This document shows, in pieces, positions 9,725 through 26,848 of a DNA stretch of 35,882 nucleotides. Both the position numbers and the translations under genes were made by a program. Origin of the DNA: Promethearchaeota archaeon (lineage in GTDB: Archaea > Asgardarchaeota > Lokiarchaeia > Sigyniarchaeales > SOKP01); assembly GCA_016840085.1 (NCBI GenBank), contig JAEOTA010000068.1:1-35882 (forward strand). Reading direction: 5' to 3'. The notes beneath the pieces are model-generated. The model did not search any database. It was not told the origin of the DNA and worked only from the letters and a program-made list of their open reading frames with translations. The first letter of the stretch is position 1, and each line of letters starts with the position of its first letter.

Positions 9725-10648
9725 ATGAGTATCGAATCCAATAGTAGTAGGAATAGATGTCCTGAATGTGGGGGATTTTCAATAATTTCAAGGCAGGAAC
9801 GGGGTGAGAAGGTGTGTAGAATTTGTGGTCTGGTGATCGAAGAGCGAATAATCGATACATCTGTCTCCGGTCAACGATATTTTACTCAAGAGGAGAGGAA
9901 TAAGAAAAAACACACTGGACCACTTATTTCTACTTATTCGTCTTCTTTGGAATTATCACCGAAAATAAACTTATCTGAAGCACGAAATTGGGATCAAAGA
10001 AGGATTTTAGCTAAGAATCCAAGAGTTAAAGATTACAAGAATAGACATTTATCAGATGCTTTTTCACATTTAACCAGAATATGCAATAGTTTAAGATTAA
10101 AGAAAATAATAATAGAGCAAACTAAGGGATTATATCTCCAAGCAAAACATCTTGCACAAGGACGAACGGTTTTAGGATTAGTATGTGCCTGTCTTTTCTA
10201 TATTTGTAAAATAAATAACATTCCAATAACATTTAAGGAGCTTGCGGAAAACATTACAGGGTTGATTGAAAATCCCTTAAAAAAAGTAAAGAAATGCTAT
10301 TTAATTCTCTTCAAGGAATTAAATCTACCATCTCCTAGAGTAAGTCCATATAGTTTTATTTCATGTTTTATTTCAGATTTAGGACAAACAAACATAATTG
10401 GATTTACGACACAATTAATAACACTATATCTTTCTAAAGTGGGTTGTAAAGGTACTGATCCAAAGGGTATTTGCGCAGCGGGAATATATTTAGCATGCAT
10501 AAGACTTAACATAAAGTGTACTCAAAGAGAGATTTCAAAAATAGCACAGATCAGTGAGGTTACTCTGCGATCAAGGTTAAAAAAATTTCAGAAAGTTATA
10601 AAAGAAAGTGAATTTCTCAAAATTTCGAATGAGCACAAAAATCTCTAA
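9725..10648 (+). CDS. tfb: Transcription initiation factor IIB (TFB), divergent paralog
   Basis: Zn ribbon CPECG...GEKVCRICGLVIEE and two cyclin repeats (GRTVLGLVCACLFYIC; GTDPKGICAAGIYLAC...TQREISKIAQISEVTLRSR). Confidence 0.92.
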   Translation: MSIESNSSRNRCPECGGFSIISRQERGEKVCRICGLVIEERIIDTSVSGQRYFTQEERNKKKHTGPLISTYSSSLELSPKINLSEARNWDQRRILAKNPRVKDYKNRHLSDAFSHLTRICNSLRLKKIIIEQTKGLYLQAKHLAQGRTVLGLVCACLFYICKINNIPITFKELAENITGLIENPLKKVKKCYLILFKELNLPSPRVSPYSFISCFISDLGQTNIIGFTTQLITLYLSKVGCKGTDPKGICAAGIYLACIRLNIKCTQREISKIAQISEVTLRSRLKKFQKVIKESEFLKISNEHKNL

Positions 10649-11919: not shown

Positions 11920-12282
11920 CTAGCTTTTAATAAATTCGAGTGTCCATTTATTTTGACGCTTCCAATTCATATACTTTCTTTTGAATGATTTTTGAGCCAC
12001 CTTATTCTTTTTAAAGGAAATATTATTTAATTTAAGTTCTTTTTCACAGTTTCTACACCAATATCTCTTTTTTAAAAATAATCTTCTTGAATAGACACAA
12101 TCATCACATACAATTATCCCACACACCCTACAAATTCGAAACCTTTTCTTTGAACCACCTTTAAAAATTAAATCCTGACAAGATTGACACATCACTACTT
12201 GTCCAGCACTTATTATATTTAATGGAAAATTTAAGCACCTTATTCCTATAATTATTTTATCTCTGAGTCCAATTCTAAACAA
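11920..12282 (-). CDS. FYVE-like 8-Cys zinc finger, probably the frameshifted C-terminus of the Mrr gene
   Basis: CQSC...RFRICRVCGIIVCDDC...WCRNC. Weak TTG start overlapping the Mrr stop by 8 bp. Confidence 0.6.
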   Translation of the reverse strand: MFRIGLRDKIIIGIRCLNFPLNIISAGQVVMCQSCQDLIFKGGSKKRFRICRVCGIIVCDDCVYSRRLFLKKRYWCRNCEKELKLNNISFKKNKVAQKSFKRKYMNWKRQNKWTLEFIKS

Positions 12283-13201
12283 AATAATTATTGGTAAGGG
12301 TTAAATCTATGCCTGTATACAATTTCCAGTAGTTATTAATGGATTTAATAGAAATATTTCTTGAACTTGGTTGACACGTAATAGAATACTCTTGATTATT
12401 ACGACCAATATAAGTTTTAACTACTGTGGTCACTTTTTGAATAAAGGATTTTATTTCTTCTATACTATAATTAGAGTATTTATTTTTAATGAACGGGATT
12501 TTATACTTACCTAATTTTTGCTTTATAGAGCTTAAGTCTTCAAAATCTTTATAATCAAATTTTGGAATTAATTCTGCAAGACCATTAGGAGAAATATAGA
12601 GATCTTGATCTTGGTAAGACATTGTCCATCGCCAACTACCTGTAGAATTTTGAAATTCGTGATTCAAAGAGAACTTTATCCAAAAAAATCTTACATAATT
12701 AAATGGAAGCATTTCTCTTTTTTTAATAAATCTTGAAGGCGGAAGAGGGTAACTAAAAATACTGTTATTTAGAACTGATTCACTTTGAGTTAATATGGTT
12801 TCTATATCTACTGATGTACAAAGAGAAGTCGATCGTGGTCGTTCTTCAATTAAAAAAATATTTACTTTTAGGGCATATGCAATTGCTTGTGGCGTAAAAT
12901 CAGAAGTAGTAATTACTATACCTTTCTCAACGTTTTGAGAAACCATTATTGAATGGAGTTTCTGTATAACTGGACGTCCAATTTTACCTTGATGTTTCTT
13001 AACTTCTACATAAATTTTTCTTCCTTTTCGATCAAATCCAATTATGTCTCGTCCTTTATCACCAGATGGTTGAGTTACTTGAACATTTGACCATCCTTTA
13101 CATCTATACATTTCTGCAACCATTTCTTCAAACTCATAGGGACTCAGATTGTCAATATTTTTTAGATAAGATTTAAGTAATGAAATATTTCGACTACTCA
13201 T
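12275..13201 (-). CDS. Mrr-family restriction endonuclease domain protein
   Basis: LSPYEFEEMVAEMY...TQPSGDKGRDII...VEVKKH...IGRPVIQKL...GIVITTSDFTPQA is the Mrr catalytic-domain pattern. Confidence 0.85.
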   Translation of the reverse strand: MSSRNISLLKSYLKNIDNLSPYEFEEMVAEMYRCKGWSNVQVTQPSGDKGRDIIGFDRKGRKIYVEVKKHQGKIGRPVIQKLHSIMVSQNVEKGIVITTSDFTPQAIAYALKVNIFLIEERPRSTSLCTSVDIETILTQSESVLNNSIFSYPLPPSRFIKKREMLPFNYVRFFWIKFSLNHEFQNSTGSWRWTMSYQDQDLYISPNGLAELIPKFDYKDFEDLSSIKQKLGKYKIPFIKNKYSNYSIEEIKSFIQKVTTVVKTYIGRNNQEYSITCQPSSRNISIKSINNYWKLYTGIDLTLTNNYFV

Positions 13202-14511: not shown

Positions 14512-17049
14512 CTATTTATTTATTTGAAGATCTACATCGCAATTATAACATTTAATCGATTCACCACTAATATATTTTTGAACTAATTCATGTGAAATGT
14601 AGGAATAACAATATGGGCAGATATTTGAGAGTATTGATACTCTCAAGTCGTAAAATTTATCCTCTGTAGCTATTACATTACTTTGGATTAATTGTTGTCT
14701 TATTTTATCACCCATTTCCGCAAGAAAGGCAGTTATTTGCTCTTCATCATTTCCAGAAACCTCTACTTTTAGAGTCCGATTTTCACCATCCAATAGGACA
14801 TATGTGATGACTTGGTTTTTTTTAACCTTGGTAATTCCAAAATACCAAGCTTCTCCAAGTCTATCTTCCTCAGAAAAATCTTTAAAGATTAATTTTATAT
14901 CAAATTTGCCTAGGACTGATATAACAGAAGAAAAGACCGAAGAGCTATATGTATTATCCACAATTGGAAATATCCTTTTATCTTGATGTGTAAGCCTGCG
15001 TCGAAGACTTTTAACTCTAGCTAAATTTGCGTCAGTTTCAGTAAAGAATATTGGACATGTAATTGAAACCATTTTAGGTTCCATGGGTATGGCTCTTGGT
15101 TTATCTTTCACATTATAAAAGCTAACTGTAGCATTGACAGGGCTTTCCATACAATTAATCGGTTCTAAATAAAGAGAGACTGCCTTTTTTTCTTTTGCTC
15201 CCAATTTAGCAATTAATATACTATCTCCTTTCCGTTCGTAATCAGGTTCGTGTAAGATCCACTTTAATGCTTTTGGAATGTCAAATGTAATTTTAAAATT
15301 GGTTAATGAGTATTGTGTATTATTTTTTACTCCGACTTTAAATCTAATTTGCCCACCAATAAATTCATATTCTCTCATAATTGTTACAAGTTTTTTTGCC
15401 TGCTCTTCCTTTATTATTGGTGGAATTTCATGTGATATTATGTCATCAACTTTAATTTTTGCCTTAGCTGTTATTGGAGTTATACCAATCAATTTATCCA
15501 TTTTCTCTTGTAGGTCTGATTGAAATGCTCTAGCTTCAATTATTCTTTCTTGTAATTTTTCTACAATATCTTGAAATTCGTTATATTTCAATGCTTTTTC
15601 TTTTGCTTGAGAATATCTGAAAATAATATCATTGACAAGTTTTATTGTTCCTGTAAGGTCTTTTTTTTGAAAATTATGGGCATACTTTAGATCTTTGTCA
15701 GAATCTAGATATGTTTTTTCGATCTCGAGCCGCTTAATATTCATTTGAATTGAACTTATGCTATTTTTAAGATCACTGTAAGATTTACTTACTTTTTTAG
15801 TTTTTATTAACTCCATAGCTAATTGTATGTTATCGATGGCTGAATGCCATTCATCTTTTGCTTCTTGTAGGTTCCATTTTTTATATCTTTCTTTTCCTTT
15901 TACCGTGTGAACTCTAGCATTTTCTATGTAGGCATTATATATGCTTTCTATGAGAATTTTTAAGTTGTGTTTAATTCTCTCCTTTTCTATAGCTTTTTTC
16001 AACAATTCTTCATAGTAGGAAATGGCTTCCTTCCATTTTTCAATAGCAACATCAAATAATTTTTTTGAGTAATTTTTTTTACCTTCATTCACCGAATCTC
16101 TTGCTCTTCTTAAAAGAAGTTCAAATTCATTTAGTAGAAGTTCTTCTTCTTGTGTTTTGATACTAATATGGTACTCTTTTTTACTTGATAAAAGAAAATT
16201 GAAAAGAATTATAAAGGAAATAGCACTAATTGAGCCCAAAATACTGGATATACCCAAAAACATTCCATTAATTAAGAGAATTAATATTAAAAATATAGCT
16301 TCAAATCTTTCGAAAAAATCAATAATCTTTGTTGATAATTTTCTTGGAATTTGTATCTCCTTAGACTTTCTTGTTGGTACTAGGCGGCTTTCTTGATGCT
16401 TGACTTGATCGAAATTATATTCAAGCCTAAGAAGTACTAAAGCAATGGCATAAATCGATCCTAAAGCTACCCAGACACCGAAAATGATTTGCCACGTAAG
16501 CCATCCATTAAAATATGTAGATTCTCCTATAATACATAGATGGATACAGATTCCAAGCCAAAATGGGTAGAATAATATCAATGATTTTATTACCCTTCTA
16601 TAACGTTCAAAATTAACTGTTCCAAAATAATATATTACAATAGACCATGAATAAATTCCAAAAAAATATGATGAAAAGGTATTAGTGATAATAAGGTATT
16701 CATCAGTTAATGTTGGCCATTCATATATCCATACATCCCATTCAATTTCAAGATCTATTAAATGAGATATTGCTGTCCCTATATCAATCCACCATAAAAT
16801 AAAGAATGTTAATATAGGTAGAAATAAGCTAATTTTTCTTAATTTTTTTATAATTAGAATTCCTACACATGATAATATAATATCTATGAGAATGGTCCAT
16901 GCAATTATTGATTGGTAAATAGGAAAGCCCCAAGGAGTAAGCTTTGGTTCTGGAAATCTGAAAACTATAGTTAAAACCGTGCCTATTATTGAAACAATTG
17001 TTATTAAGGCAAGAAATATTATTATTCTAATTTTTGTTCTATATAACAT
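14512..17049 (-). CDS. Multi-pass membrane protein with helical TPR-like region, adaptin-appendage-like domain and terminal Zn ribbon
   Basis: About 8 hydrophobic segments in aa 1-290, then helical repeats (AIEKWKEAISYYEE). A beta-rich REYEFIGGQIRFKVGVKN...VSLYLEP...VSITCP segment is followed by an alpha/beta segment and CPYC...CYNC. Confidence 0.7.
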   Translation of the reverse strand: MLYRTKIRIIIFLALITIVSIIGTVLTIVFRFPEPKLTPWGFPIYQSIIAWTILIDIILSCVGILIIKKLRKISLFLPILTFFILWWIDIGTAISHLIDLEIEWDVWIYEWPTLTDEYLIITNTFSSYFFGIYSWSIVIYYFGTVNFERYRRVIKSLILFYPFWLGICIHLCIIGESTYFNGWLTWQIIFGVWVALGSIYAIALVLLRLEYNFDQVKHQESRLVPTRKSKEIQIPRKLSTKIIDFFERFEAIFLILILLINGMFLGISSILGSISAISFIILFNFLLSSKKEYHISIKTQEEELLLNEFELLLRRARDSVNEGKKNYSKKLFDVAIEKWKEAISYYEELLKKAIEKERIKHNLKILIESIYNAYIENARVHTVKGKERYKKWNLQEAKDEWHSAIDNIQLAMELIKTKKVSKSYSDLKNSISSIQMNIKRLEIEKTYLDSDKDLKYAHNFQKKDLTGTIKLVNDIIFRYSQAKEKALKYNEFQDIVEKLQERIIEARAFQSDLQEKMDKLIGITPITAKAKIKVDDIISHEIPPIIKEEQAKKLVTIMREYEFIGGQIRFKVGVKNNTQYSLTNFKITFDIPKALKWILHEPDYERKGDSILIAKLGAKEKKAVSLYLEPINCMESPVNATVSFYNVKDKPRAIPMEPKMVSITCPIFFTETDANLARVKSLRRRLTHQDKRIFPIVDNTYSSSVFSSVISVLGKFDIKLIFKDFSEEDRLGEAWYFGITKVKKNQVITYVLLDGENRTLKVEVSGNDEEQITAFLAEMGDKIRQQLIQSNVIATEDKFYDLRVSILSNICPYCYSYISHELVQKYISGESIKCYNCDVDLQINK

Positions 17050-17059
17050 TTTTTAGTCA

Positions 17060-18037
17060 TTATTTTTTAAGTCTCTTTAATTTTTCAAAACACTCTTTAA
17101 TTGTAGAGTCATCCTCATTGAAAATTTGGAAGTAAAGTCTAGAAATCGGATTTGAAGCACAGAAAAAATCATTTTCTTTTGTTGCAATATATTTTAACTC
17201 CTCTTCATCAAGTTCATCAATAAATTTCTCATAAAAAATCAATTTAGCTAATATTATTTGTCTTAATACAGGAAAAGAATAAATTAAAACATCAGTGTCT
17301 TCTATTGTGGCACATCCTCTCTCGTTTATTAAAAGCGACAATGCTTTTGAGCATTGTAAAACATCTTTAAAAGATAATTTCGAACTTAGTTCACAATGAG
17401 TTAAAATTGTGCTTATCGTATTTTCAACTTCATATTCTTCTTCATACCCAAATCTCTCTTCATATTCTTCCAATTCTTTACGAGGAACAAGTTGAATTTC
17501 TTCAGGGAGTTTTTCTAACTCTTTTTTAGTCTTTTCAAAGTTAAATTTTTTACAAAATTTGTGTTCCATCTCTGTCTCTCTTTGAAAATATTCTAAAAAC
17601 CGATCTTTGTTAAATCGAAACCTATTTTCTTCAACCATTTCTAAAAAATCAGTCATATATCTAATTAAATTCTCATCAGAGGTTGAAAAGATCCCATTTT
17701 CAATATTCTCGGAATTTTCATCTAAGAAGCTTCCAAAATCATAATATCCTATGCGCACATGTCTACAAATGCCTTTACATAAGAATTTCTCTGGACAGTT
17801 TACAGCATTAAAAAATTTTCTAGCAACAACAGGTTCTTCGCCATTTATGGATATTGCTGTTCCTTTAAGATTTCCTACCAACTCAAATAACTTTGTCAAA
17901 TCTTTATCTTCAGGAGATTCAAAATTTATTTTATAATATCTGTCTTCTATAAATCCCCCATGTTTTTCTGCTAATCTAATAGCTTCAGGGACATTTTGTC
18001 CGCTTGATTTTGAATTAAATTTAAATTCTATTTTCAT
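17060..18037 (-). CDS. Hypothetical acidic protein with Cys/His cluster
   Basis: GAGGTGG SD-like site, 38 bp after the Mre11-Rad50 stop; contains CPEKFLCKGICRH. Confidence 0.75.
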   Translation of the reverse strand: MKIEFKFNSKSSGQNVPEAIRLAEKHGGFIEDRYYKINFESPEDKDLTKLFELVGNLKGTAISINGEEPVVARKFFNAVNCPEKFLCKGICRHVRIGYYDFGSFLDENSENIENGIFSTSDENLIRYMTDFLEMVEENRFRFNKDRFLEYFQRETEMEHKFCKKFNFEKTKKELEKLPEEIQLVPRKELEEYEERFGYEEEYEVENTISTILTHCELSSKLSFKDVLQCSKALSLLINERGCATIEDTDVLIYSFPVLRQIILAKLIFYEKFIDELDEEELKYIATKENDFFCASNPISRLYFQIFNEDDSTIKECFEKLKRLKK

Positions 18038-18075: not shown

Positions 18076-21000
18076 TTAATTAAAAATTTTTGACTTGCCT
18101 AACTCATCCCATCCAATCATGATTCGATGTGGGAATTGTTCTGCAACATCTTCTAAATGAGTGATGAGAATAATTTTCTTAAACATTGATTTCAATTCTA
18201 AAATTTTTTCTACAAAACGTTGTCGGGCTGATTCATCATCCAATGTTCCAAGATCTCCTTCATCAATAAACAGTGTGTTTGATTTTCGAAATAATGCCCC
18301 TGTCGTATCTGGAATCTCTGCGATATGCTCCATTATTGCAAATCGGATAGCCGCATTAATCTGAGTCTTTTCGCCGCCTGAAAAACTACTTGCTTCTCGG
18401 TCACGTTCACCATCAAAAACATTGATTTCAAATCCAACCCTTTTTCCCTTTAATGGTTTAAATGTAATTTGGTTAAATTTCCCATCAGTAAGATCGCTTA
18501 ATATTTGTGAAGCACTAACTGAGATAGCAGGGAGAATTTGCTCTACCGCAAACTTAGGAACTCCATTAAGATGGAAAATATCTTCTCGTAACAACTTATA
18601 TTTTTCAATGTTATCTGTAATCTCTTGTATTTCTTTTTTTATTCGCTTAATTTTACTCTCTTTTTCTTTTATCTTTTCTATATCTTTAGCAATGAAATTG
18701 ATTTCTACTTTTAATCCTTCTATTTTATTTTCCAATTCTTGGAGTTCTTGTTGTTTTTTCCCATATTTATTAGCAATCTCTAAATATTGTTGATATGAAG
18801 ATTCTAATTTTAATAATTTTTTGTTCAGTTTTCCCAATTCGCTTTCTTTTTGTGTGAGATCTTCTTCGCTTTTTTCAATCATAATGGAGAAATCTTTTAT
18901 TTCATTCAATTTACTTTCTATTCCTTCTCTTTCTTTCTCAGTATCTTCTATTCTCTTGAATCCTTCCTTAATTTTATTTAATTGTTCCTTAAATTCAGAA
19001 ATTACTCCTTTTTGTTTCATATCTTTATTTAATGTTTGAATTTTTTCTGAGAATGTAGAGATCTCAGTAATTTTCTTTTTTTCTATTCCATTATATTGAT
19101 TCATTATTGTGTCTTTATCACTCTTAATCTCATCAGCAATGAAGACTGCTTTAGTAATTTTTTTTTGCTTGGGTTTAATTTCTTCTAATTGTTTATTTGT
19201 TTGACTTTCTAATGAAGTAAATTCTTTAATACGTGTGGTATCATTATATTCTTGTGCCATGGGAATCTCAACGTTCTGGAGTCGATAGAGCCTTTCCGTT
19301 AGCATTCCATTATCTTTTAAAATATTGAACGCATCGTCTTTTGTTATAGTGACATCTAAGCTTTTAAGAGTAACATCCTTCTCATTTATTTGTGTTGATA
19401 AATTTTCTAATTGTTCATTATATTGTTTCTCAGTTTGTTGCACCAAATTCTTATTGCTACTAATTTCAGATTGAAGTAATTCAAGCTCGTGAATCACTTT
19501 TTCAATTTCTTCTTTTTTAATTTGTAATTCCTTTCTTTCTTTTTTCACATCTGGTAGATTTTGTAATTTATTTTGTAGTTTATTATATTCTTCTTGCTGT
19601 TGCTTATATTCTTTCAGCTCTGTTTTATCCTCCTCGATCTTTTCTTTTATCCCTTCGATTGATTTTTGAGTAGTTGTATAATTAAAGGCATCCGTCTGAG
19701 TGGCTTCTGTTTTTTCTTTTAAATCCTTTATAGTATTTGATAATTCAGTTTGTCGCTTTCCTTTCTCTTGGAGTCCTTCATTTATTTCTTGTAACTCTCT
19801 TTCTTTTTGAGGTAGTTCCTCAAGAAATTCCTCTAACCCGATAATCTCTCCTTCAAGAGTGGCTTTCTTACCTGTGAAATCATCAATCGTAGATTTTAAA
19901 TTTTGATATATATTGCTGAATATCTTCAATTTAAATAATTTTACAAGCCTTTGTTGCCTTTTTTCTGTTGTTAGAGTAGAAAAGATCTGAAGTTCTTGTT
20001 GTCGTATGAAAAAAGAAGATGTAAAACCTTCATAATCATACCCAATGATATCTTCCAATTTTTTCTCTTTTTCTGGAACGCTAAGTCCAGAAAATAAGGG
20101 ATCTCCATTATACTTTATTTGTAATTTTGGAGATGTCTGACTCCTCTTTACTGATAAGTTCTTATCTCCAATCAATAATTCTAAGGAGACATATCCACCT
20201 TTGTATAGGATCTCATCTAACGTAAGACCCACATCTTTTCGAGAATTTCTTTTAAATACTGCAAAAGTAATAGCATCTAAAATGGAAGATTTACCTGAAC
20301 CTGTAGGTCCTTTAATAACATATAGATCTTCATCGAAACTTATTTTATTTGGCCCTTTTCCATATTTATTAAAATTTTGCATATCAATCGATTTAATAGA
20401 TAATGAACCTTTTGCGGTAAGATCTACTAGCGATAATTCTCTATCTAGCAATTCTAATCCGATATTTTTTAGATCCTTATAATAGTTATGAGTAGCATAT
20501 TTTTGTTCTAGAAAATCTTTAAATAAGCTTTTGGGATCTAAGTTAACTTCTCTTAATTTTGGACTTTCTTTAAAAGCTTTCTCTATGTAAGTTAGATCAA
20601 CATTATAAGAAGACTTGAAATAGTTATCTAATTGATATTTATCAAGGCTAGTCTCTTTCCCTTGAGGATAGTGTATTTGGATTTTACATACAGCTTCTTT
20701 AATTTTTTCTTTTTCTGGTAAATGGTTTAAGGAATATTCGGTTAGGTCTTCAGCATCATCAGGTATTTCAATCTCATGCTGTAATAATTTTCTACACTCA
20801 ATTTTTCGAAATTCTATATCATTATTTTCTACATCATATACGCAATAAAATTTATCAGAATTTCTCTCTCCCATATCAATTCTATCTATTGAACCAGGAA
20901 TAATTATTCGATCATCATTCCACATGGTTTGCTTTAAATGAATATGTCCAAATATAACGAGATCAAAGTATTCTTTTTGAACCATTCCTTTATTGAAATG

Positions 21001-21681
21001 AAATTCTCCATAAATCATAGATGGATTGTTAGTTTCCCTGATTTTTGCCCCTTCCAAATAATAATGACCTAAGAGAATTCTTTTATCACATTCTTTTAGT
21101 TTATTTTCACAGGTCTGTTTTATAAAGGTTCTAAAGATATGTTGCGTAATTATATAATTATCTTTGTCTTTAAGAAAGTCTTCACTTATTATTCTCTTTT
21201 CCTTAAAGATGTTCACTAATACATCAAAGTGAAGATAGGGTAAAAATATAAATCCAATCTTACTCCCATTAGTCTCTATTACTTTCGATCTTATACTCGT
21301 ATATACCTCAACATTTGAAAAATTAGCTAACTCTTGAATATCCACCCCTCGTTGTGGATTTCTTGTTGAATCATGATTACCTCCTAGAATAATTGTGTTA
21401 ATATTACTCTGATTTAGGGGAAGGAAAATTTTTTCTCGTACTATTTTTCTAATGGTAGGGGAAATACTTTTTCTGTGGTATAGATCTCCTAAGAAAATTA
21501 CAAAATCAGCCTTGTCTTTAATGGCTTCATTTATGATTTTTTCACAGTTATTAATGACATCCAAACTTCTTTCAGAAATATTAAGTTCATAATTTTTCCG
21601 GTAAGGATACGTCTTTCCAAAATGAGTGTCCCCAACAAAATAAATTTTTGTCATATTCTTTTCAACTTTATTTATTTTCAA
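18076..21681 (-). CDS. mre11-rad50: Mre11/SbcD nuclease fused to Rad50/SbcC ATPase; likely start ATG 21654
   Basis: Phosphoesterase motifs GDTHFG, GDLYH, GNHD, LGH, GHIH, PGSIDRIDMGE. From aa ~427: Walker A GPTGSGKSS, Q-loop FIRQQE, coiled coil, signature FSGGE, Walker B FIDEGDLGTLD, H-loop ITH. Confidence 0.95.
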   Translation of the reverse strand: MKINKVEKNMTKIYFVGDTHFGKTYPYRKNYELNISERSLDVINNCEKIINEAIKDKADFVIFLGDLYHRKSISPTIRKIVREKIFLPLNQSNINTIILGGNHDSTRNPQRGVDIQELANFSNVEVYTSIRSKVIETNGSKIGFIFLPYLHFDVLVNIFKEKRIISEDFLKDKDNYIITQHIFRTFIKQTCENKLKECDKRILLGHYYLEGAKIRETNNPSMIYGEFHFNKGMVQKEYFDLVIFGHIHLKQTMWNDDRIIIPGSIDRIDMGERNSDKFYCVYDVENNDIEFRKIECRKLLQHEIEIPDDAEDLTEYSLNHLPEKEKIKEAVCKIQIHYPQGKETSLDKYQLDNYFKSSYNVDLTYIEKAFKESPKLREVNLDPKSLFKDFLEQKYATHNYYKDLKNIGLELLDRELSLVDLTAKGSLSIKSIDMQNFNKYGKGPNKISFDEDLYVIKGPTGSGKSSILDAITFAVFKRNSRKDVGLTLDEILYKGGYVSLELLIGDKNLSVKRSQTSPKLQIKYNGDPLFSGLSVPEKEKKLEDIIGYDYEGFTSSFFIRQQELQIFSTLTTEKRQQRLVKLFKLKIFSNIYQNLKSTIDDFTGKKATLEGEIIGLEEFLEELPQKERELQEINEGLQEKGKRQTELSNTIKDLKEKTEATQTDAFNYTTTQKSIEGIKEKIEEDKTELKEYKQQQEEYNKLQNKLQNLPDVKKERKELQIKKEEIEKVIHELELLQSEISSNKNLVQQTEKQYNEQLENLSTQINEKDVTLKSLDVTITKDDAFNILKDNGMLTERLYRLQNVEIPMAQEYNDTTRIKEFTSLESQTNKQLEEIKPKQKKITKAVFIADEIKSDKDTIMNQYNGIEKKKITEISTFSEKIQTLNKDMKQKGVISEFKEQLNKIKEGFKRIEDTEKEREGIESKLNEIKDFSIMIEKSEEDLTQKESELGKLNKKLLKLESSYQQYLEIANKYGKKQQELQELENKIEGLKVEINFIAKDIEKIKEKESKIKRIKKEIQEITDNIEKYKLLREDIFHLNGVPKFAVEQILPAISVSASQILSDLTDGKFNQITFKPLKGKRVGFEINVFDGERDREASSFSGGEKTQINAAIRFAIMEHIAEIPDTTGALFRKSNTLFIDEGDLGTLDDESARQRFVEKILELKSMFKKIILITHLEDVAEQFPHRIMIGWDELGKSKIFN

Positions 21682-21701: not shown

Positions 21702-23378
21702 TTAGTCATCTTCTAATGTCGTTAAATCTGATTCTTCAATAGCTTTAAGAGTTGCTGAAATTGGTACTGTTATTTCTAATTTTTCCTTTAACTTTACTTC
21801 ATCCTTATAATTTAGTACTTCAACTATAGAAGGTACAGCCACAGCATCCCCTCTTACGAAACATTCCCTTTTTTGAAGTCCAGAAATCACCCCACGCCAT
21901 TTTTTTGCATCCGGTAGAGTTTGTACTACCCGTTTTATATCTTTATCATCAGTCATATGCATTACAAAAGTATTTGCGATTTGGGAATACACTTCTTCAT
22001 CAATTTGAGAGGGTCTCTGGTCAACAAAAGCTAGTGTTAATTGGAATTTTCTTGTTTCTCTAGCTATACTATCAAAGATTGTATGTTGAATAACACTTGG
22101 TTTTAGAAATTTATGTGCTTCTTCAACCACTACGACTAATGGGGGCAATTTGCTTTCATCTTCTTTTTGAGAGTACATAGTATATAATCTTCTCGTAATC
22201 ATGTTTGCCACAAATAGATATAAGTGAGAATTTATGCCATATTTTCCAAAATCGATTACTATTGATTTTCCTTCTAGTAATTTATTAAACATATGTTCTA
22301 AGCTATCTTTTCTTTTACTCTCTCCTCTATCTCTTAAGAATTCATATCGTTCAAATCGAATTATTCTATTTTGTAGTGCATTTAATGTCATACTGTGTAA
22401 CCCATAATCTTCAGCCTGAATATTGTTAATCGCATCCAATAGATTATCATGTGCAAATCCTTCAGTCTGTAATAGCCCCTCGACGCGAATTAGGGCGTTT
22501 ACTGAAGCTTCTCTCAATGTCTGAGCACTTGCGATAATATCTCCCGAAGTGATAGTATCTTTATAAACAAAAAAAGGTTCTGCGCCATCTATTACTTCTT
22601 CTTCCTTCTCTATATCACTAAGCCGATAAATCTGAATTTTATCTAAAAAATAGTAAGCTAATCCTTTTGTCTTATCCGAGCGTGATATTAACCCATATTC
22701 ACCTTGCATGTCAAATAATACTAATTGAGAGACTTGGTGCTTTAAAATGAATAGACATAAAATTTTGTTTAATATTGATTTACCAATTCCTGTTCTTCCA
22801 AACAGACCATAGGGTTTTTCTACTAAAAGTTTAAAATCTATTGGTACTTCATATTTAAATCCTCGAAGGGTTCCTATTACATCTGAGTACTCGGACACTC
22901 TATAGATAAGGTTTATCTCCTCGTCAGTAACTCCTCGTCCTTTTGAAAAGATTGGCGGAATGGTATCAAATCCACGCATTAATTCTTGGTATTCTAATTC
23001 GTCTTTTGGTTTACTCGGTAATACTCGAAGACAGCTTAAATCAGCAAGTCCATAAAATTCTTTTCCTCTTACACCTTCTATTTGTGGTGGCGGTAGCAGA
23101 CCAGTAAAAGGAGTGTTCGCAAACTTTTCAGCTAATTCATTGCTAGGATAATACAATCGTGTAATTAATGTATAATACAGCAATTTATCGGTCTCTATCA
23201 CTAGTGGTTGACCAAGGCGTAAATCATCAGGACGTCTTTGGATCTTCAGAGTGATTACACTACTTGGAGGTCCTGTATCTGCGGAACAAACTTCTCCAAT
23301 TTTATTGGGTTCTTCTATTGTTTCTAATCCTTCTAATTCAATATTTAATTCATTATTTTCTTTATCTGACATTTTCAT
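21702..23378 (-). CDS. herA: HerA-family DNA translocase/helicase
   Basis: N-terminal HAS-barrel-like region, Walker A GRTGIGKS, FDMQGEY, Walker B VVVEEAHKF, arginine-finger motif ARETRKF, DQRPSQID. Confidence 0.93.
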   Translation of the reverse strand: MKMSDKENNELNIELEGLETIEEPNKIGEVCSADTGPPSSVITLKIQRRPDDLRLGQPLVIETDKLLYYTLITRLYYPSNELAEKFANTPFTGLLPPPQIEGVRGKEFYGLADLSCLRVLPSKPKDELEYQELMRGFDTIPPIFSKGRGVTDEEINLIYRVSEYSDVIGTLRGFKYEVPIDFKLLVEKPYGLFGRTGIGKSILNKILCLFILKHQVSQLVLFDMQGEYGLISRSDKTKGLAYYFLDKIQIYRLSDIEKEEEVIDGAEPFFVYKDTITSGDIIASAQTLREASVNALIRVEGLLQTEGFAHDNLLDAINNIQAEDYGLHSMTLNALQNRIIRFERYEFLRDRGESKRKDSLEHMFNKLLEGKSIVIDFGKYGINSHLYLFVANMITRRLYTMYSQKEDESKLPPLVVVVEEAHKFLKPSVIQHTIFDSIARETRKFQLTLAFVDQRPSQIDEEVYSQIANTFVMHMTDDKDIKRVVQTLPDAKKWRGVISGLQKRECFVRGDAVAVPSIVEVLNYKDEVKLKEKLEITVPISATLKAIEESDLTTLEDD

Positions 23379-23400: not shown

Positions 23401-24474
23401 TTATCTTGATATTTGATCTAAAATTTCATGAAAAGAATTAAATTCTCTTCCATCCATATCGACAGCACCATCCAAAATGTCTTCAGATCGTAATCCTAAT
23501 TTTTTGAGCTCTCTTAAGAGTTCTAATTCATAGGACTCTTTAAAATCCCTCACACTTTTTGCCAATTTATGGGCTTCTATCAGACCAATTGGATATCCTG
23601 GTAATAAATGAACCATAGAATATGCTGCAATAGAAGAAAATAATTGTTCCTTGTCTAATATATCATGGTTAATGTCTACTCGAAACCATTTCACTGCTTC
23701 TCTATGTAATTTTGCAAAATGAACATCTCCCCAATAATCGAATTTTGTCTGCTGTTCAATTACCGCTTCAGGAACATATACATAAGTTAAATCATAGAAT
23801 TGTGTATTATAAAATTTTTTCAGACAATAATCATCAGTATATTGATTCTCTAAGAAATGTGTGCTTGTTGATTTAGATACACCAGCAAATAACACATTAT
23901 TCATTCTACAATTAACTAGGATTCGTGTATAAATATCTTCTCGTTTTAATTCTTTAAAAGTGAGTAATGCTCCATCTTTTACAAGAATGCAATTTTTTCG
24001 AGTTTCCGAGATTTTCTCTAATGCTTTATCTTCGAAATAACTCATAATATTCGAAGCAAAGATTTGAGGTTTTCTTTCTTGAAATCTACTTGCAATTTCT
24101 GAGGCATTAGAAAAAATCTGTGGTTGTGAAGCTAAAACATTTTCATTAAAACTTAGTAAACTAAGATTATCATAAATCTTTGGTGGTGATTTAATGCAAT
24201 AATTTATTCTTCCCTTTCTCATTTCAATACAGTATTCTGTTACAGCAATTCTAAAAAGAACAATCCATGTCTCAGCACCTAAAAATGAAAATAAAAAGCA
24301 ATATGAACCGTCAACCGATATTAATGGTAACACTTCTTCCATGTTAGAAGGTAGAGAAAATGTTATTGCTTCAAGTTCAGGTTTCTTACCTTCTTCTCCT
24401 TCGTCTTCCTCATATTCTCCTAACTTCGCTAGTTTTAATAACTCGATAACATTTTGGATGTCTTTATCTTTCAC
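23401..24474 (-). CDS. nurA: NurA-family nuclease (GTG start)
   Basis: ISVDGS, LVKDGAL, AGVSKST and GYPIGLIEAHKLA; 22 bp upstream of herA. Confidence 0.9.
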   Translation of the reverse strand: MKDKDIQNVIELLKLAKLGEYEEDEGEEGKKPELEAITFSLPSNMEEVLPLISVDGSYCFLFSFLGAETWIVLFRIAVTEYCIEMRKGRINYCIKSPPKIYDNLSLLSFNENVLASQPQIFSNASEIASRFQERKPQIFASNIMSYFEDKALEKISETRKNCILVKDGALLTFKELKREDIYTRILVNCRMNNVLFAGVSKSTSTHFLENQYTDDYCLKKFYNTQFYDLTYVYVPEAVIEQQTKFDYWGDVHFAKLHREAVKWFRVDINHDILDKEQLFSSIAAYSMVHLLPGYPIGLIEAHKLAKSVRDFKESYELELLRELKKLGLRSEDILDGAVDMDGREFNSFHEILDQISR

Positions 24475-24568: not shown

Positions 24569-26848
24569 TTACCTTGGATCGTAAGGCACAATAATATCTT
24601 CCTTAGTTAATTTTGCTAAATTCTGAACAATGTGGAGTGGCAATATTGTTTTTGGCTGTTGAAATAGAGAACTCCAGTCTAAATAACGTAAATCATTAAA
24701 AATTCTCACTATCTGTTCTATGTTCATATTATTATTAATTTGATAGGTAAGATTTAGTCGCGTTGAAGAAGCAGTTCCTATTCTTGGTTTCGACGTGACA
24801 ATTATCGCATCATGTGGATTTCGGATTAACCCAGAATAATTTACTCTGTATCCATATTTTTCTTCACCATAAAATCTATGCAGTCCTCGTTTAATAGCAG
24901 CAATGACTTTAATATCAGATTCTTTTTCCATAATATGTTCTTGAAGTAACCTTTCCTTAGCCAACAGGGCCCCTTTTTGATATTCTTTTCTTTCAGAAGG
25001 ATAGATTGGCCCATCTTTAAAAAGAAAGATAGTATCAATCTTTTTATTATCTTCAATATCATCATATGTAGATGTTGCCAAGTCAAAGAACCAATCACTT
25101 AAAACTTCAGCAATAATTTTCTCTCCTCGATGGGTATCTATTGAGTTTTTGTATAAGATTCTACCAAGATTATCACATACAGCAGCATATGCAGCAGCTT
25201 CTTTTCTTGTTTCTGGATTCCTTGAGACATCAAACCCCATGAAATAATTATTTTGATTTGGGTTTAGACCACCTGCTGGGCTTTTTAAATGCCAGATTGC
25301 TTCACCGCAACCTAAATATCTTCCATACGCTTTGAGAGCGATATTATAATTCGAAAAAGAGAATCCGCCTTTAAGACTAGCACTTAATAATTCGTTATAG
25401 GTTTTCCATTGAATCATTTCACTTTTTACCAAATGCCTTCCTAGACCTCTCTTCGCAGCAAAATATGTTTTCATAAGATTACTTTTTGGCAATAGTACAA
25501 TGGCAATTTGATCTGTTATTTCTTGTCCAAACTTCTGACATATCCGCATATATCTATCAGGATGAATTCTATCAACCGGAAACAAATTACTTAGTTTAAA
25601 TTCTCCTAAATGTAATTTTTTTGTGTGTTTATTCAAGTAATTATGAAATTGTTTCAAGTGTTCAATTTCACTTTCGGGGGCTACATAACTTATTGGAATC
25701 GAACCCTTTACGTCCACAGGTCCATATTGAAACATAGCATTTTTAATATCTGGATCTGACCAAGGTTTATCAGGTCTACATATGCCACCATTACCAAATT
25801 GAAGGATTGGGGCATTAAGATAGATCTGACTACCGAAATTCACACTCTTATCATTAAGATTAAATAATTTCCTTTCAAATACAAGTTCAGTATTGCCTAA
25901 CTTTAAACCATCTCCTAATATTAAATCAAAAAGTTTGAAAGTCTCTTGTATACGGATTTTTGGTGATAAAGATTTTTTTTCTAAAAATACATTATCAGGA
26001 ATAATCGGATCTAATAAATCAATAACAATTTCTAACACCGATGGGGGATAAGGGAGTGGTTTAGTATTTTTCGAAATTTCAAGTAATAAGGTTGGTTTGT
26101 CATTGGGATTTAATGTTACATGATTTCTCTGAAGCCATCTTCTATGAGGTTCGCTTGTTGTCCAATATTTATACACTGAAGTAGGCTCTCCATCTTGTCC
26201 TTCGAATTTATATTCTTGAATAGAAATATCTATGATATCAACAATTTTGGCAGTAAAAGACCTGTATTTTGATACACTTGGATATTTTACTTTCTTTTTT
26301 AATAAATAGATATTTAACGCACTGAAATTATTATTTTTTGCCCAGGTAAGAAATGAGCTCATTTTAAATTTCCATTTGGTAGTAGGATCTAACCAGACAC
26401 CCACCTTCCCATCTTGTAAGACTTCTACCTCTGAGTAGAATGCATTATAAAATGAAAAGAAATCTTCTTTATAAGATTTCTTATTGTGATATTTCTGACC
26501 TTCAGAACGGGCAAATCCAATAGAAAAAGCTTTTTGTTTAATTAGACTGTTAACGAGATGATTAAGAATCGTATTATGTTCTTTAGTATTTAGAATAATA
26601 TTTTGATCTAATAAAATAAATTTATAATTATTGATCTCAAACTTTTTAAGTGGACTTGTTCCATTTTCTACAAAATAGATTTTATCTCCGTATGAGGTAG
26701 TTGGAAAATTATTATTAAAGAGCTTCCATTCAGCTCCCTTTATTATTCGATAATAATCATCGGGAGGTATTGTACTATCGGATGAATATACTTTCACAGG
26801 TAGTTTTCTCAATGGTTCATCTCGGGTGACAAACATATTAATATTCAT
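24569..26848 (-). CDS. ago: Long prokaryotic Argonaute (N-L1-PAZ-L2-MID-PIWI)
   Basis: L1 VGVWLDP; PAZ TSVYKYW...DKPTLL...PYPPSVL; L2 LSPKIRI...LNAPILQFGNG; MID TYFAAK...SEMI...NIALK; PIWI MGFDVSR (D540), RGEKI (E576), FKDGP (D612), IKRGLHRFY, LPLHIVQNL. Confidence 0.93.
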   Translation of the reverse strand: MNINMFVTRDEPLRKLPVKVYSSDSTIPPDDYYRIIKGAEWKLFNNNFPTTSYGDKIYFVENGTSPLKKFEINNYKFILLDQNIILNTKEHNTILNHLVNSLIKQKAFSIGFARSEGQKYHNKKSYKEDFFSFYNAFYSEVEVLQDGKVGVWLDPTTKWKFKMSSFLTWAKNNNFSALNIYLLKKKVKYPSVSKYRSFTAKIVDIIDISIQEYKFEGQDGEPTSVYKYWTTSEPHRRWLQRNHVTLNPNDKPTLLLEISKNTKPLPYPPSVLEIVIDLLDPIIPDNVFLEKKSLSPKIRIQETFKLFDLILGDGLKLGNTELVFERKLFNLNDKSVNFGSQIYLNAPILQFGNGGICRPDKPWSDPDIKNAMFQYGPVDVKGSIPISYVAPESEIEHLKQFHNYLNKHTKKLHLGEFKLSNLFPVDRIHPDRYMRICQKFGQEITDQIAIVLLPKSNLMKTYFAAKRGLGRHLVKSEMIQWKTYNELLSASLKGGFSFSNYNIALKAYGRYLGCGEAIWHLKSPAGGLNPNQNNYFMGFDVSRNPETRKEAAAYAAVCDNLGRILYKNSIDTHRGEKIIAEVLSDWFFDLATSTYDDIEDNKKIDTIFLFKDGPIYPSERKEYQKGALLAKERLLQEHIMEKESDIKVIAAIKRGLHRFYGEEKYGYRVNYSGLIRNPHDAIIVTSKPRIGTASSTRLNLTYQINNNMNIEQIVRIFNDLRYLDWSSLFQQPKTILPLHIVQNLAKLTKEDIIVPYDPR

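What the first reader, a model, noticed from the sequence alone, without database searches (positions are those of the whole stretch)
18076..21681. Natural single-chain Mre11-Rad50 (SbcD-SbcC) fusion
Seen: one reading frame crosses the junction near 20403 (ELLDRELSLVDLTAKGSLSIKSIDMQNF), with Leu where a Rad50 initiator Met would sit, which argues against a read-through artefact. Established: the two are normally separate genes, and fusions are sporadic (e.g. Mimivirus). Inference: the fixed 1:1 link marks a specialised or mobile module.
Basis: partly seen in the sequence, partly recalled or inferred. Interest (0 to 1): 0.75.

Follow-up and report, generated by a model that had tools for sequence, protein, structure and literature searches.

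The report
Single-chain Mre11-Rad50 in Asgard archaea
An Asgard (Lokiarchaeota-type) archaeon encodes the DNA-break nuclease Mre11 and its ATPase partner Rad50 as one conserved protein inside an extra, patchily inherited NurA-HerA repair cassette that often sits beside Argonaute and other defence genes; such fusions were known from viruses, bacteria and eukaryotes, but no paper found here reports one in archaea.

Summary
Window 18076-21654 (-) is one open frame of 1192 aa (1201 from an upstream TTG). It joins a complete Mre11 (nuclease, capping domain, Rad50-binding helix-loop-helix) through a 9-residue connector to a complete Rad50. It is not an assembly artefact: the same fusion occurs in a 55%-identical paralogue in this genome, in at least 7 other genomes of the phylum, and in 37 public protein clusters, with every catalytic motif kept. 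It is not the genus's ordinary form: 37 of 40 genus genomes carry a split, zinc-hooked Rad50 of about 700 aa, while 3 of 54 sampled carry the fusion, each in addition to a split pair. The fusion always follows nurA and herA as a three-gene block. That block has different flanks in different genomes and is inverted between identical flanks in two relatives. It belongs to an archaeal Mre11-Rad50 lineage that lacks the CxxC zinc hook whether fused or split. Five of 17 loci have an Argonaute directly upstream (two unrelated types); others adjoin CRISPR-Cas, SIR2-HerA, OLD nucleases or restriction genes. Natural Mre11/Rad50 fusions were described in 2011, so this is a new archaeal variant of a known kind. 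A defence role is inferred, not shown. Earlier scan notes exist on this same stretch.

The parts
18076..21654 (-). Fused mre11::rad50 gene, 1192 codons plus stop (an alternative TTG start at 21681 would give 1201 aa)
20581..21654 (-). Mre11 nuclease and capping domains (residues 1-358). Phosphoesterase motif residues D9/H11 (kept in at least 90% of rows), D57, N93/H94, H197 and H237/H239 (invariant) are conserved across the 14 fused orthologues
   Evidence: Invariant columns; Pfam Metallophos 56 bits; profile aligns to T. maritima, M. jannaschii and E. coli Mre11/SbcD chains; Foldseek TM to target 0.62-0.79
20431..20580 (-). Flexible linker (residues 359-373, low pLDDT at 361-369) and helix-loop-helix Rad50-binding domain (helices 374-386 and 392-408)
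   Evidence: AF2 secondary structure; family profile positions 1-407 align to T. maritima Mre11 residues 1-377 of 379, which includes its C-terminal helix-loop-helix; P374 nearly invariant
20404..20430 (-). Nine-residue connector LVDLTAKGS (residues 409-417) joining the end of Mre11 to the first strand of Rad50; this is the fusion junction
   Evidence: The length matches the 9-12 residues estimated to span about 28 A in the T. maritima complex (PMC3175470)
19924..20403 (-). Rad50 N-terminal ATPase lobe (residues 418-577): first strand 418-428, Walker A GPTGSGKS (G449, G452, G454, K455), Q-loop Q552
18487..19923 (-). Antiparallel coiled coil (residues about 578-1056)
   Evidence: AF2 helices 578-1056 with short breaks; Foldseek hits to Rad50 and SMC chains
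19246..19272 (-). Hook-equivalent motif VEIPMAQEY (residues 795-803). It aligns with the DCPxCGA zinc hook of phage and bacterial relatives; the proline is kept and both cysteines are absent. The helix breaks at 803-805
18079..18486 (-). Rad50 C-terminal ATPase lobe (residues 1057-1192): signature SGGE 1092-1095, Walker B D1131/E1132, D-loop, H-loop H1166
   Evidence: Invariant columns; PDB matches to Rad50 C-terminal segments
19158..19166 (-). A9 homopolymer inside the coiled-coil coding region. The closest relative has A8 here, which splits its gene into 849 + 342 aa
21702..23378 (-). herA (558 aa), 47 bp upstream of the fusion's ATG; present at every fused locus examined
   Evidence: Pfam DUF87/HerA 59.6 bits; NCBIfam and PADLOC HerA hits; synteny
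23401..24474 (-). Divergent nurA (357 aa), 22 bp upstream of herA
   Evidence: No direct Pfam hit. A profile built from its four orthologues matches neighbours of the split relatives at E 1e-43 to 1e-69, and those neighbours pass Pfam's NurA cut-off. It is 32-33% identical over 160-180 aa to the C6 NurA. The P0009 neighbour carries Pfam NurA
24569..26848 (-). Argonaute (Piwi domain, 759 aa), co-oriented, 94 bp upstream of nurA; this is context, not part of the conserved trio
17060..18037 (-). 325-aa protein of unknown function with an invariant C-x5-C-x3-C-x-H cluster, 38 bp downstream of the fusion. Also lies next to the cassette at C8 (opposite strand), G003 and a G133 fragment
   Evidence: no family, atlas or confident fold result
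14512..17049 (-). 845-aa protein of unknown function, 10 bp downstream of the 325-aa gene. A partial homologue lies directly upstream of nurA at the C8 paralogous locus

Best explanation
The gene encodes a functional single-chain Mre11-Rad50. A full Mre11 is joined end-to-start through a 9-residue connector to a full Rad50 ABC ATPase with a long coiled coil. Two such chains should form the equivalent of the usual Mre11(2)-Rad50(2) head as a homodimer, with each Mre11 tail tethered beside a Rad50 coiled-coil base. The gene is the third member of a fixed three-gene block, nurA-herA-mre11::rad50, which is a complete archaeal DNA-end-resection machine. The block derives from an archaeal Mre11-Rad50 lineage that has no zinc hook and that elsewhere is encoded as two overlapping genes. 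The fusion removed the Mre11 stop codon and a few N-terminal Rad50 residues. In the window's genus the block is an accessory second system, present alongside a split, zinc-hooked housekeeping pair, and it is inherited patchily as a discrete unit. Its most likely role is dedicated processing or degradation of DNA ends in a defence setting, for example acting with the adjacent Argonaute or restriction enzymes on invader DNA. Shown here: the gene structure, conservation, intact motifs, paralogy, distribution, and cassette and neighbourhood patterns. Inferred: enzymatic activity, homodimer assembly, the benefit of fusion (fixed 1:1 ratio, single-gene transfer, possibly insulation from the resident pair), and the defence role. 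Sub-confidences: real fused gene 0.97; accessory in this genus 0.9; active nuclease-ATPase 0.8; defence-linked role 0.45.
For: One ORF with both domains. A fused paralogue on C8 at 55% identity, and fused orthologues in G003, G053, G235, G236, G030 and G026. 37 public clusters of 1186-1200 aa. Catalytic residues of both halves conserved in 14 fused proteins. The profile aligns to full-length T. maritima Mre11 including the helix-loop-helix, and to Rad50 from residue 2-3. AF2 mean pLDDT 80.5 with a 9-residue connector. Foldseek hits to Mre11 and Rad50. The linker length matches the published geometry. The split relatives' Mre11 C-terminus and Rad50 N-terminus are collinear with the fused junction. 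A split nurA-herA-mre11-rad50 locus lies on C6. Split hooked Rad50 types are found in 37 of 40 genus genomes. The trio is intact at all loci that are complete on both sides, and the flanks vary. The cassette is inverted between collinear flanks. Both half-trees and the concatenated tree put fused groups A and B in an archaeal clade with split relatives, and a phage-borne fused group C with bacteria. Defence neighbours: pAgo at 5 of 17 loci, of two unrelated types; OLD nuclease, type I-E CRISPR-Cas, SIR2-HerA, MmeI-type restriction-modification, Schlafen-like helicases; Mrr-like and MmeI-type genes in the window.
Against: There is no biochemical or genetic evidence. The defence link is guilt by association: 12 of 17 loci lack a pAgo, and some loci (G030/P0180, G236, P0009) sit among housekeeping genes. 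No integrase, transposase, tRNA, phage-family hit or terminal repeat marks the block as a mobile element. In G030 and G235/G236 no second adjacent Mre11-Rad50 pair was found, so 'accessory' may not hold outside the window's genus. The window's NurA has no direct Pfam hit. A single origin for fused groups A and B has only SH-aLRT 80-90 and is unresolved in the Rad50 tree. Read-level support was not checked. Decay does occur in relatives: a frameshifted copy and a 518-aa remnant.
Confidence: 0.6

Rival explanations
1. It is a second DNA-repair system with no defence role: a redundant or condition-specific end-resection paralogue kept for genome maintenance, whose position next to defence genes is incidental because both accumulate in variable genome regions.
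For: All four components are classical repair proteins. Several fused loci lie among housekeeping genes. In family f16 the split form of the same lineage is near-universal (19 of 22 genomes), and no hooked Rad50 was found in 5 of those genomes, so this lineage can be a primary repair system. In G030 and G235/G236 no other pair was found. The 2026 NurA review notes lineage-specific NurA duplications in Asgard archaea without invoking defence.
Against: A pAgo sits directly upstream and co-oriented at 5 of 17 loci, and it comes in two unrelated types, which points to repeated recruitment. Many other loci are flanked by recognised defence genes. The distribution within the genus is very patchy (3 of 54), which is unusual for a maintenance system.
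Confidence: 0.3
2. It is the ordinary housekeeping Mre11-Rad50 of this lineage, which simply happens to be fused.
For: In G030 and G235/G236 no second adjacent pair was detected, and the G030 and G236 copies have housekeeping-type neighbours.
Against: In the window's genus, 37 of 40 genomes have a split hooked Rad50 of about 700 aa, while only 3 of 54 have the fusion, and all three of those also keep the split pair. The window's genome has two fused copies plus the split C6 locus. In genus g22 only 2 of 42 genomes have the fusion.
Confidence: 0.05
3. It is an assembly or sequencing artefact (a false indel merging two adjacent genes), or a decaying pseudogene.
For: The genome is a metagenome-type assembly of 89 contigs with 7.6% estimated contamination. 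Reads were not inspected. Relatives do show decay: an A8/A9 frameshift and a 518-aa remnant.
Against: The same in-frame junction occurs in about 20 independently assembled loci at 27-93% identity, including a paralogue in the same genome. The junction region aligns without gaps within group A, and the connector is conserved. All catalytic residues are intact. A 1192-codon open frame in 30% GC DNA is not a chance event.
Confidence: 0.02

Closest known systems
Natural Mre11/Rad50 (SbcD/SbcC) fusion proteins: Mimivirus R555 and twelve others (Yoshida, Claverie and Ogata 2011, Virol J 8:427, PMC3175470)
   Same: The order is N-terminal Mre11 then C-terminal Rad50 in one polypeptide. The capping and helix-loop-helix regions are retained. 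The linker is about 9-12 residues. Distribution is sporadic. Cellular hosts usually also keep a normal split pair. The fused proteins are distinct from the canonical sequences of their hosts.
   Different: That survey lists eukaryotes, bacteria, a phage, plasmids and giant viruses, but no archaea, and it does not mention HerA or NurA. The proteins here form an archaeal clade derived from archaeal split genes, always follow nurA-herA, lack the zinc hook and are chromosomal. Their relationship to the 13 published proteins was not tested because those sequences were not retrieved. No close relative was found in 50,697 phage or 72,556 plasmid records.
Archaeal herA-mre11-rad50-nurA end-resection operon (Sulfolobus and Pyrococcus type; reviewed in PMC13748450)
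   Same: The same four activities are encoded side by side: HerA helicase, NurA nuclease, Mre11 nuclease and Rad50 ATPase.
   Different: The gene order is nurA-herA-mre11::rad50, Mre11 and Rad50 are one protein, and Rad50 has no CxxC hook. In this genus the block is an extra copy beside a split locus (C6), to whose proteins it is only about 24-33% identical. All NCBIfam Rad50 and HerA equivalog scores fall far below their cut-offs.
Solved Mre11-Rad50 head complexes: T. maritima 3QG5/3THO, M. jannaschii 3AV0/5DNY, E. coli SbcCD 6S6V/6S85
   Same: The sequence profile and the predicted fold match both subunits, including the Mre11 C-terminal helix-loop-helix that binds the Rad50 coiled-coil base.
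   Different: In those complexes the subunits are separate chains. Here they are covalently joined, and the coiled-coil apex lacks the zinc-binding cysteines.
Hookless archaeal Mre11-Rad50 lineage encoded as split genes (Asgard family f16; Methanocellales, Thermoplasmata, Bathyarchaeota and Methanomassiliicoccales MAGs)
   Same: These are the nearest relatives of both halves (27-38% identity). They share the cysteine-free apex motif and the same NurA and HerA partners. Family f16 has the same order, herA-mre11-rad50, with a 4-nt stop/start overlap.
   Different: They are two genes rather than one. In the non-Asgard archaea the order is mre11-rad50-nurA-herA. In f16 the set is near-universal and may be the main system there.
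Prokaryotic Argonaute working with the host end-resection machinery (RecBCD/AddAB in bacteria).
   Same: An Argonaute is encoded directly upstream of a complete DNA-end-processing machine at 5 of 17 loci.
   Different: In bacteria the cooperation is with unlinked housekeeping enzymes. Here the resection genes are physically linked to the pAgo gene and are of the archaeal NurA-HerA-Mre11-Rad50 type. No functional data exist.
HerA-containing anti-phage systems (SIR2-HerA, DUF4297-HerA) and SMC/Rad50-like defence ATPases (Lamassu LmuB, Wadjet JetC) as represented in PADLOC
   Same: HerA matches PADLOC HerA models (best E 6.8e-36), and the Rad50 half weakly matches LmuB and JetC models. One fused locus lies next to a SIR2-HerA pair.
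   Different: No PADLOC system has this gene set. NurA, the 325-aa protein and the 845-aa protein have no PADLOC hits. The matches reflect shared ATPase folds, not membership.

Membership tests
Mre11/SbcD nuclease | Calcineurin-like phosphoesterase domain with the conserved metal-binding motifs (DxH, GD, GNH[D/E], H, GHxH) | tested here: met
   D9 and H11 are kept in at least 90% of rows; D57, N93, H94, H197, H237 and H239 are invariant across 14 fused orthologues. Pfam Metallophos scores 56 bits against a cut-off of 21.5.
Mre11/SbcD nuclease | Capping domain plus C-terminal helix-loop-helix Rad50-binding domain | tested here: met
   The family profile aligns to T. maritima Mre11 residues 1-377 of 379. 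AF2 predicts helices 374-386 and 392-408. Foldseek TM to target is 0.62-0.79 for Mre11/SbcD chains.
Mre11/SbcD nuclease | Score above the curated NCBIfam sbcD subfamily cut-off (TIGR00619, 77.65 bits) | tested here: not met
   61.7 bits for the protein and 64.9 bits in the genome search. It is a divergent member. One orthologue (G235) does pass, at 79.4 bits.
Rad50/SbcC ABC ATPase | Walker A, Q-loop, signature motif, Walker B, D-loop and H-loop split between N- and C-terminal lobes | tested here: met
   G449, G452, G454, K455, Q552, S1092-E1095, D1131, E1132, D1139 and H1166 are invariant. The profile matches PDB Rad50 N- and C-terminal segments.
Rad50/SbcC ABC ATPase | Long antiparallel coiled coil between the two lobes | tested here: met
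   AF2 predicts helices spanning about 578-1056 with a mid-point break at 803-805. Foldseek hits Rad50 and SMC chains.
Rad50/SbcC ABC ATPase | CxxC zinc hook at the coiled-coil apex | tested here: not met
   The Rad50 half of the window protein has no cysteine at all. VEIPMAQEY aligns with the DCPxCGA hook of relatives. The whole archaeal clade, fused and split, lacks CxxC, whereas the C6 Rad50 of the same genome has KCSLCG.
Rad50/SbcC ABC ATPase | Score above curated NCBIfam Rad50 or SbcC cut-offs | tested here: not met
   Best is PRK03918 at 140.6 bits against a cut-off of 700; sbcC TIGR00618 scores 109.5 against 478.5.
Natural Mre11/Rad50 fusion proteins (Yoshida et al. 2011) | Mre11-like N-terminal and Rad50-like C-terminal domains in one polypeptide, joined by a short linker compatible with the complex geometry | tested here: met
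   The 9-residue connector compares with the published estimate of 9-12 residues.
Natural Mre11/Rad50 fusion proteins (Yoshida et al. 2011) | Sporadic distribution, with a normal split pair usually co-resident in cellular hosts | tested here: met
   About 9 of 400 phylum genomes carry the fusion. G000, G003 and G053 each also carry the split C6-type pair. This is inconclusive for G030 and G235/G236.
Natural Mre11/Rad50 fusion proteins (Yoshida et al. 2011) | Common descent with the 13 published fusion proteins | not tested
   The published sequences were not retrieved. The trees here show at least two independent fusion events within this family alone, so common descent is unlikely to be a defining property.
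Archaeal HerA-NurA-Mre11-Rad50 end-resection operon | All four genes adjacent and co-oriented | tested here: met
   nurA 23401-24474, herA 21702-23378 and the fusion 18076-21654, with gaps of 22 and 47 bp. The same trio is found at every locus that is complete on both sides.
Archaeal HerA-NurA-Mre11-Rad50 end-resection operon | NurA identity of the 357-aa protein | tested here: inconclusive
   There is no direct Pfam or NCBIfam hit. Support comes from transitive profile matches (E 1e-43 to 1e-69) to proteins that pass Pfam's NurA cut-off, and from 32-33% identity to the C6 NurA. Catalytic residues were not examined.
Known anti-phage defence systems (PADLOC-DB 2.0) | The gene set matches a described system | tested here: not met
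   Only fold-level hits were found (HerA, LmuB, JetC and pAgo models). There is no system-level match, and NurA, the 325-aa protein and the 845-aa protein have no hits.
Integrative mobile element or provirus | Integrase or transposase, tRNA target, terminal repeats or viral hallmark genes | tested here: not met
   No tRNA, no PHROG hits among 10 unknown ORFs, no integrase or transposase among the Pfam hits, and no border inverted repeats.

The most novel reading that the evidence does not exclude
The four-gene string pAgo-nurA-herA-mre11::rad50 is an Argonaute-coupled invader-DNA resection system of Asgard archaea, an archaeal and physically linked counterpart of the pAgo-RecBCD cooperation seen in bacteria. 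In this reading the dedicated hookless, single-chain Mre11-Rad50 and NurA-HerA either degrade Argonaute-cut DNA or generate guides from DNA ends. Covalent fusion would keep this machine from mixing subunits with the cell's own zinc-hooked Mre11-Rad50.
Probability: 0.3. Interest if true: 0.8.

Novelty: new variant of a known kind. Interest (0 to 1): 0.55.

Why it matters
Four reasons. First, no paper in the library searched here reports an archaeal Mre11-Rad50 fusion, and public records name these proteins only as 'AAA family ATPase', 'exonuclease SbcC' or 'hypothetical'. Recognising them defines a family of at least 37 clusters in the archaeal group closest to eukaryotes. Second, a naturally single-chain, cysteine-free Mre11-Rad50 with fixed 1:1 stoichiometry is a convenient subject for structural and single-molecule work. 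It also poses a clear question: how does a Rad50 without a zinc hook hold its coiled-coil apex together or tether DNA? Third, having fused and split forms of one lineage, in genomes with and without a second pair, gives a natural experiment on why subunits fuse (dosage, transferability or insulation from paralogues). Fourth, the repeated linkage to two unrelated Argonautes and to other defence genes makes a specific idea testable: that archaeal Argonautes work together with end-resection machinery.

Tried and rejected
- **Artefact reading:** rejected because the junction is conserved across independent assemblies.
- **Housekeeping reading:** rejected for this genus.
- **Zinc-hook loss as a consequence of fusion:** rejected, because split archaeal relatives also lack it.
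- **pAgo as a fixed part of the module:** rejected, because only 5 of 17 loci have one.
- **Two-sequence Rad50 profile (A5) as a probe for other genomes:** uninformative, since it missed even the fused genes. Replaced by curated family models.
- **325-aa neighbour:** no Pfam, NCBIfam, PADLOC or PHROG hit, no atlas hit, and the AF2 model reached only pLDDT 58, so no fold search was run.
- **845-aa neighbour:** only distant PCI/DDRGK-like winged-helix relatives.
- **Annotated phages and plasmids:** no close relative.
- **Mobile-element signals:** no tRNA, no phage-family hits, no terminal inverted repeats at the cassette borders in three loci.
- **Literature:** no paper on archaeal or Asgard Mre11-Rad50 fusions or on pAgo linked to HerA/NurA.
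- **Geometry of the Mre11 tail (own chain versus partner chain):** could not be measured because the model coordinates are not exposed.
- **Slips corrected:** query over the length limit, family ids written with version numbers, a slash in a search term.

Full report
**Observation.** The minus strand carries one open frame from 21681 (TTG) or 21654 (ATG) to the stop at 18076-18078. The ATG start gives 1192 aa beginning MTKIYFVGDTHFG. It matches the N-termini of the orthologues and the gene call in the public record. Residue numbers below refer to this 1192-aa form. Pfam finds a calcineurin-like phosphoesterase at 12-248 and Rad50/SMC-type ATPase domains from 429. NCBIfam's best hits are archaeal Rad50, SbcC and SbcD, all below their curated cut-offs. 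From my recollection of P. furiosus Rad50 (M1 ... N10 F11), the Leu codon at 20403 (L418) falls where the initiator Met would sit, counting back from the invariant N427/F428. independently puts residues 2-3 of solved Rad50 chains at query 417-419.

**Anatomy.** A profile of 12 fused proteins aligns to full-length T. maritima Mre11 (residues 1-377 of 379, which includes the C-terminal helix-loop-helix that binds Rad50) over positions 1-407. It aligns to Rad50 chains from their residue 2-3 at positions 417-419. An AlphaFold2 model built on 14 sequences (mean pLDDT 80.5) gives these domains:
- nuclease and capping domains, residues 1-358;
- a low-confidence linker around 361-369;
- helices 374-386 and 392-408;
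- a 9-residue connector, 409-417;
- the first Rad50 strand, 418-428;
- a coiled coil at about 578-1056 with a break at 803-805;
- the C-terminal ATPase lobe.

Foldseek returns Rad50 and Mre11/SbcD structures. The residues of the Mre11 metal-binding motifs and the Rad50 Walker A, Q-loop, signature, Walker B, D-loop and H-loop residues are conserved in 14 fused orthologues at 20-63% identity (D9 and H11 in at least 90% of rows, the rest invariant). Yoshida et al. measured about 28 A between the Mre11 C-terminus and the Rad50 N-terminus in the T. maritima complex, equivalent to 9-12 extended residues. The connector here fits that estimate.

**Not an artefact.** The window's genome holds a second fused copy on contig C8 (1187 aa, 55% identity). 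Fused orthologues occur in G003, G053, G235, G236, G030 and G026, with a partial copy in G195. An exhaustive representative search and a word-indexed search found further full-length fused proteins. The latter gave 37 clusters of 1186-1200 aa from NCBI, JGI, ENA and Logan. Where named, they are 'AAA family ATPase', 'exonuclease SbcC' or 'hypothetical protein' of Promethearchaeota or Lokiarchaeota MAGs. A 91-93% identical relative from two other assemblies reads through the junction in frame. Reads themselves could not be inspected.

**Not the ordinary form in this genus.** Contig C6 of the same genome carries a split locus: NurA (376 aa, passes Pfam's cut-off), HerA (525 aa), Mre11 (432 aa) and Rad50 (694 aa, with a KCSLCG hook). 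Of 40 other genus genomes, 16 have this C6-type pair and 23 have a second type of about 700 aa, also hooked and 24% identical to the first. Two have both and three have neither. The fusion was found in 3 of 54 genus genomes sampled (counting G000), in 6 of 135 genomes of family f1 (likewise counting G000) and in about 9 of 400 genomes of the phylum. G000, G003 and G053 each have the fusion in addition to the split pair. Outside the genus the picture is less clear. In G030 and G235/G236 the curated SbcD and Rad50 models found the fused gene but no second adjacent pair. G195, which has only a 518-aa remnant of the fusion, has a canonical 918-aa Rad50.

**The cassette.** At every fused locus that is complete on both sides, the gene is preceded by a NurA-like gene and herA. 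At P0168 no NurA-sized gene was called upstream of herA, and at P0178 the upstream 422-aa gene has no Pfam hit and was not tested as NurA. The window's 357-aa protein has no direct Pfam hit. However, a profile built from its orthologues matches, at E 1e-43 to 1e-69, the neighbours of split relatives that do pass Pfam's NurA threshold. The flanks differ from locus to locus. In G030 and the contig carrying P0180, both flanks are collinear while the 6.3-kb trio lies in the opposite orientation. No terminal repeats, tRNA, integrase or phage-family genes were found. A contig-end fragment in a genome of another family (G133) is 63% identical to the window protein and is followed by the same 325-aa gene. 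That suggests transfer between families or a binning error.

**Origin.** All 80 loci recovered from named species-representative genomes encode the two halves separately. The nearest are archaeal: Methanocellales, Thermoplasmata, Bathyarchaeota and Methanomassiliicoccales, with the order mre11-rad50-nurA-herA. Asgard family f16 (19 of 22 genomes) has herA-mre11-rad50 with a 4-nt stop/start overlap. The results of the separate trees were:
- **Mre11 half:** fused groups A and B form one clade (SH-aLRT 90), sister to the f16 split genes and inside an archaeal clade (100).
- **Rad50 half:** the same archaeal clade appears (99), but it is unresolved inside.
- **Group C:** this fused group falls with the bacterial (mainly Chloroflexota) split genes in both trees. 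One of its members lies on a phage-like contig.
- **Concatenated alignment:** groups A and B stay together at SH-aLRT 80.

So the two halves share one history, the fusion arose at least twice in this family, and a single archaeal event is favoured but not proven. Compared with the f16 genes, the fused junction is collinear with the Mre11 C-terminus and with the Rad50 N-terminus minus a few residues.

**The hook.** The Rad50 half of the window protein has no cysteine. VEIPMAQEY (19246-19272) aligns with the DCPxCGA hook of group C and the bacterial relatives. The whole archaeal clade, fused or split, lacks CxxC, so the loss came before the fusion and marks a distinct hookless lineage.

**Neighbourhood and likely role.** The window's string pAgo-nurA-herA-fusion-325aa-845aa is co-oriented, with gaps of 94, 22, 47, 38 and 10 bp. 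The window also holds an Mrr-like nuclease, a CoiA-like nuclease and an MmeI/Eco57I-type enzyme. Of 17 fused loci with an assembled upstream flank, 5 have a Piwi protein directly upstream. Four of these pAgos are orthologous to one another (54-89% identity), and their divergence tracks that of the linked fusion proteins. The window's pAgo is unrelated to them by BLAST. Other loci adjoin an OLD-family nuclease, type I-E CRISPR-Cas, SIR2-HerA, MmeI-type restriction-modification, and Schlafen-like, NOV_C and PLD-SNF2 genes. Some loci are in housekeeping surroundings. I therefore read the trio as a self-contained end-resection machine that in this genus is accessory and probably serves defence-associated DNA processing. 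That last step is inference by association.

**Comparison with what is known.** Natural Mre11/Rad50 fusions were first described in 2011 in Mimivirus, a Bacillus phage, Clostridium and Deferribacter plasmids, other bacteria and several eukaryotes. None of them was archaeal, and the paper does not mention HerA or NurA. Searches of the held literature, a 2026 NurA review and two 2026 surveys of archaeal and Asgard defence found no report of an archaeal fusion or of pAgo linked to HerA/NurA/Mre11/Rad50. The finding is therefore a new archaeal variant of a known architecture.

**Limits.** No reads and no model coordinates were available. The trees were built with the quick method. The neighbourhood counts are small and phylogenetically non-independent. 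The 325-aa and 845-aa proteins remain uncharacterised.

Noticed in passing
window 19158-19166 (-); L153 about 10510-10520: There is an A9 run inside the coiled-coil coding region. The closest relative (91-93% identical; ENA and Logan assemblies) has A8 at this spot, which shifts the frame and splits the gene into 849 + 342 aa. It is either a homopolymer sequencing error or real slippage that switches the gene off.
   Followed up: partly
G000 contig C6 (L027 5297-11429) and L007 406-2502: The genus carries two alternative split, zinc-hooked Rad50 types of about 700 aa that are only 24% identical. They are almost mutually exclusive across 40 genomes: 16 have one type, 23 have the other, 2 have both and 3 have neither.
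   Followed up: partly
window 17060-18037 (-): A 325-aa protein with an invariant C-x5-C-x3-C-x-H cluster lies next to the fused cassette in four places (window, C8 on the opposite strand, G003, and a G133 fragment). It has no family hit, and its AF2 model reached only pLDDT 58.
   Followed up: partly
window 14512-17049 (-); L026 16707-17993: An 845-aa protein lies downstream in the window, and a partial homologue sits directly upstream of nurA at the C8 paralogous locus, in the position a pAgo occupies elsewhere. Its only distant relatives carry PCI/DDRGK-type winged-helix domains, and one 1372-aa relative has WD40 repeats.
   Followed up: partly
L138 16455-18800; L145 1797-4145; L148 1781-4147; L151 1712-4066: A second Argonaute type (781-788 aa; the copies are 54-89% identical to each other and unrelated by BLAST to the window's pAgo) sits directly upstream of nurA-herA-fusion in four relatives. 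At two of these loci (P0167, P0164), a roughly 260-aa HFX_2341_N-like gene faces away from it.
   Followed up: partly
L029 10572-16807 versus L147 4332-10555: The nurA-herA-fusion block is inverted between collinear flanks (histidine kinase on one side, F420 ligase on the other) in two related genomes. No terminal inverted repeats were found.
   Followed up: yes
L140 8573-10129 (G195): A 518-aa remnant spans the end of Mre11 and the start of Rad50, with no nurA or herA beside it. The same genome has a canonical 918-aa Rad50. It looks like a decayed copy of the fused gene.
   Followed up: partly
L141 7319-10157 (G133, family f16): A contig-end fragment is 63% identical to the window's Rad50 C-terminus and is followed by the 325-aa gene, in a genome whose own family carries the split form. 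This is either transfer between families or a binning error.
   Followed up: no
L153 3757-6255 and 11599-13578: In the closest relative, an 832-aa NOV_C/HATPase (sacsin-like) gene is inserted between nurA and herA, and an OLD-family ATPase-TOPRIM nuclease follows the fusion, as it does in G053.
   Followed up: no
L144 8001-11357: A fused SbcD-SbcC with an intact CPxCG zinc hook lies on a phage-like contig (Dam methylase, Gp3-like, VRR_NUC, DEAD helicase and many small co-oriented ORFs). It represents an independent, bacterial-side fusion in the same broad family.
   Followed up: partly
window 10651-11718 (+) and 12275-13201 (-); L151 1-177: A CoiA-like nuclease sits directly after a TFIIB gene, and an Mrr-like nuclease (PADLOC PDC-S02 / type IV restriction hits) lies nearby. 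A CoiA-like nuclease also lies near the pAgo-cassette locus of P0173.
   Followed up: no
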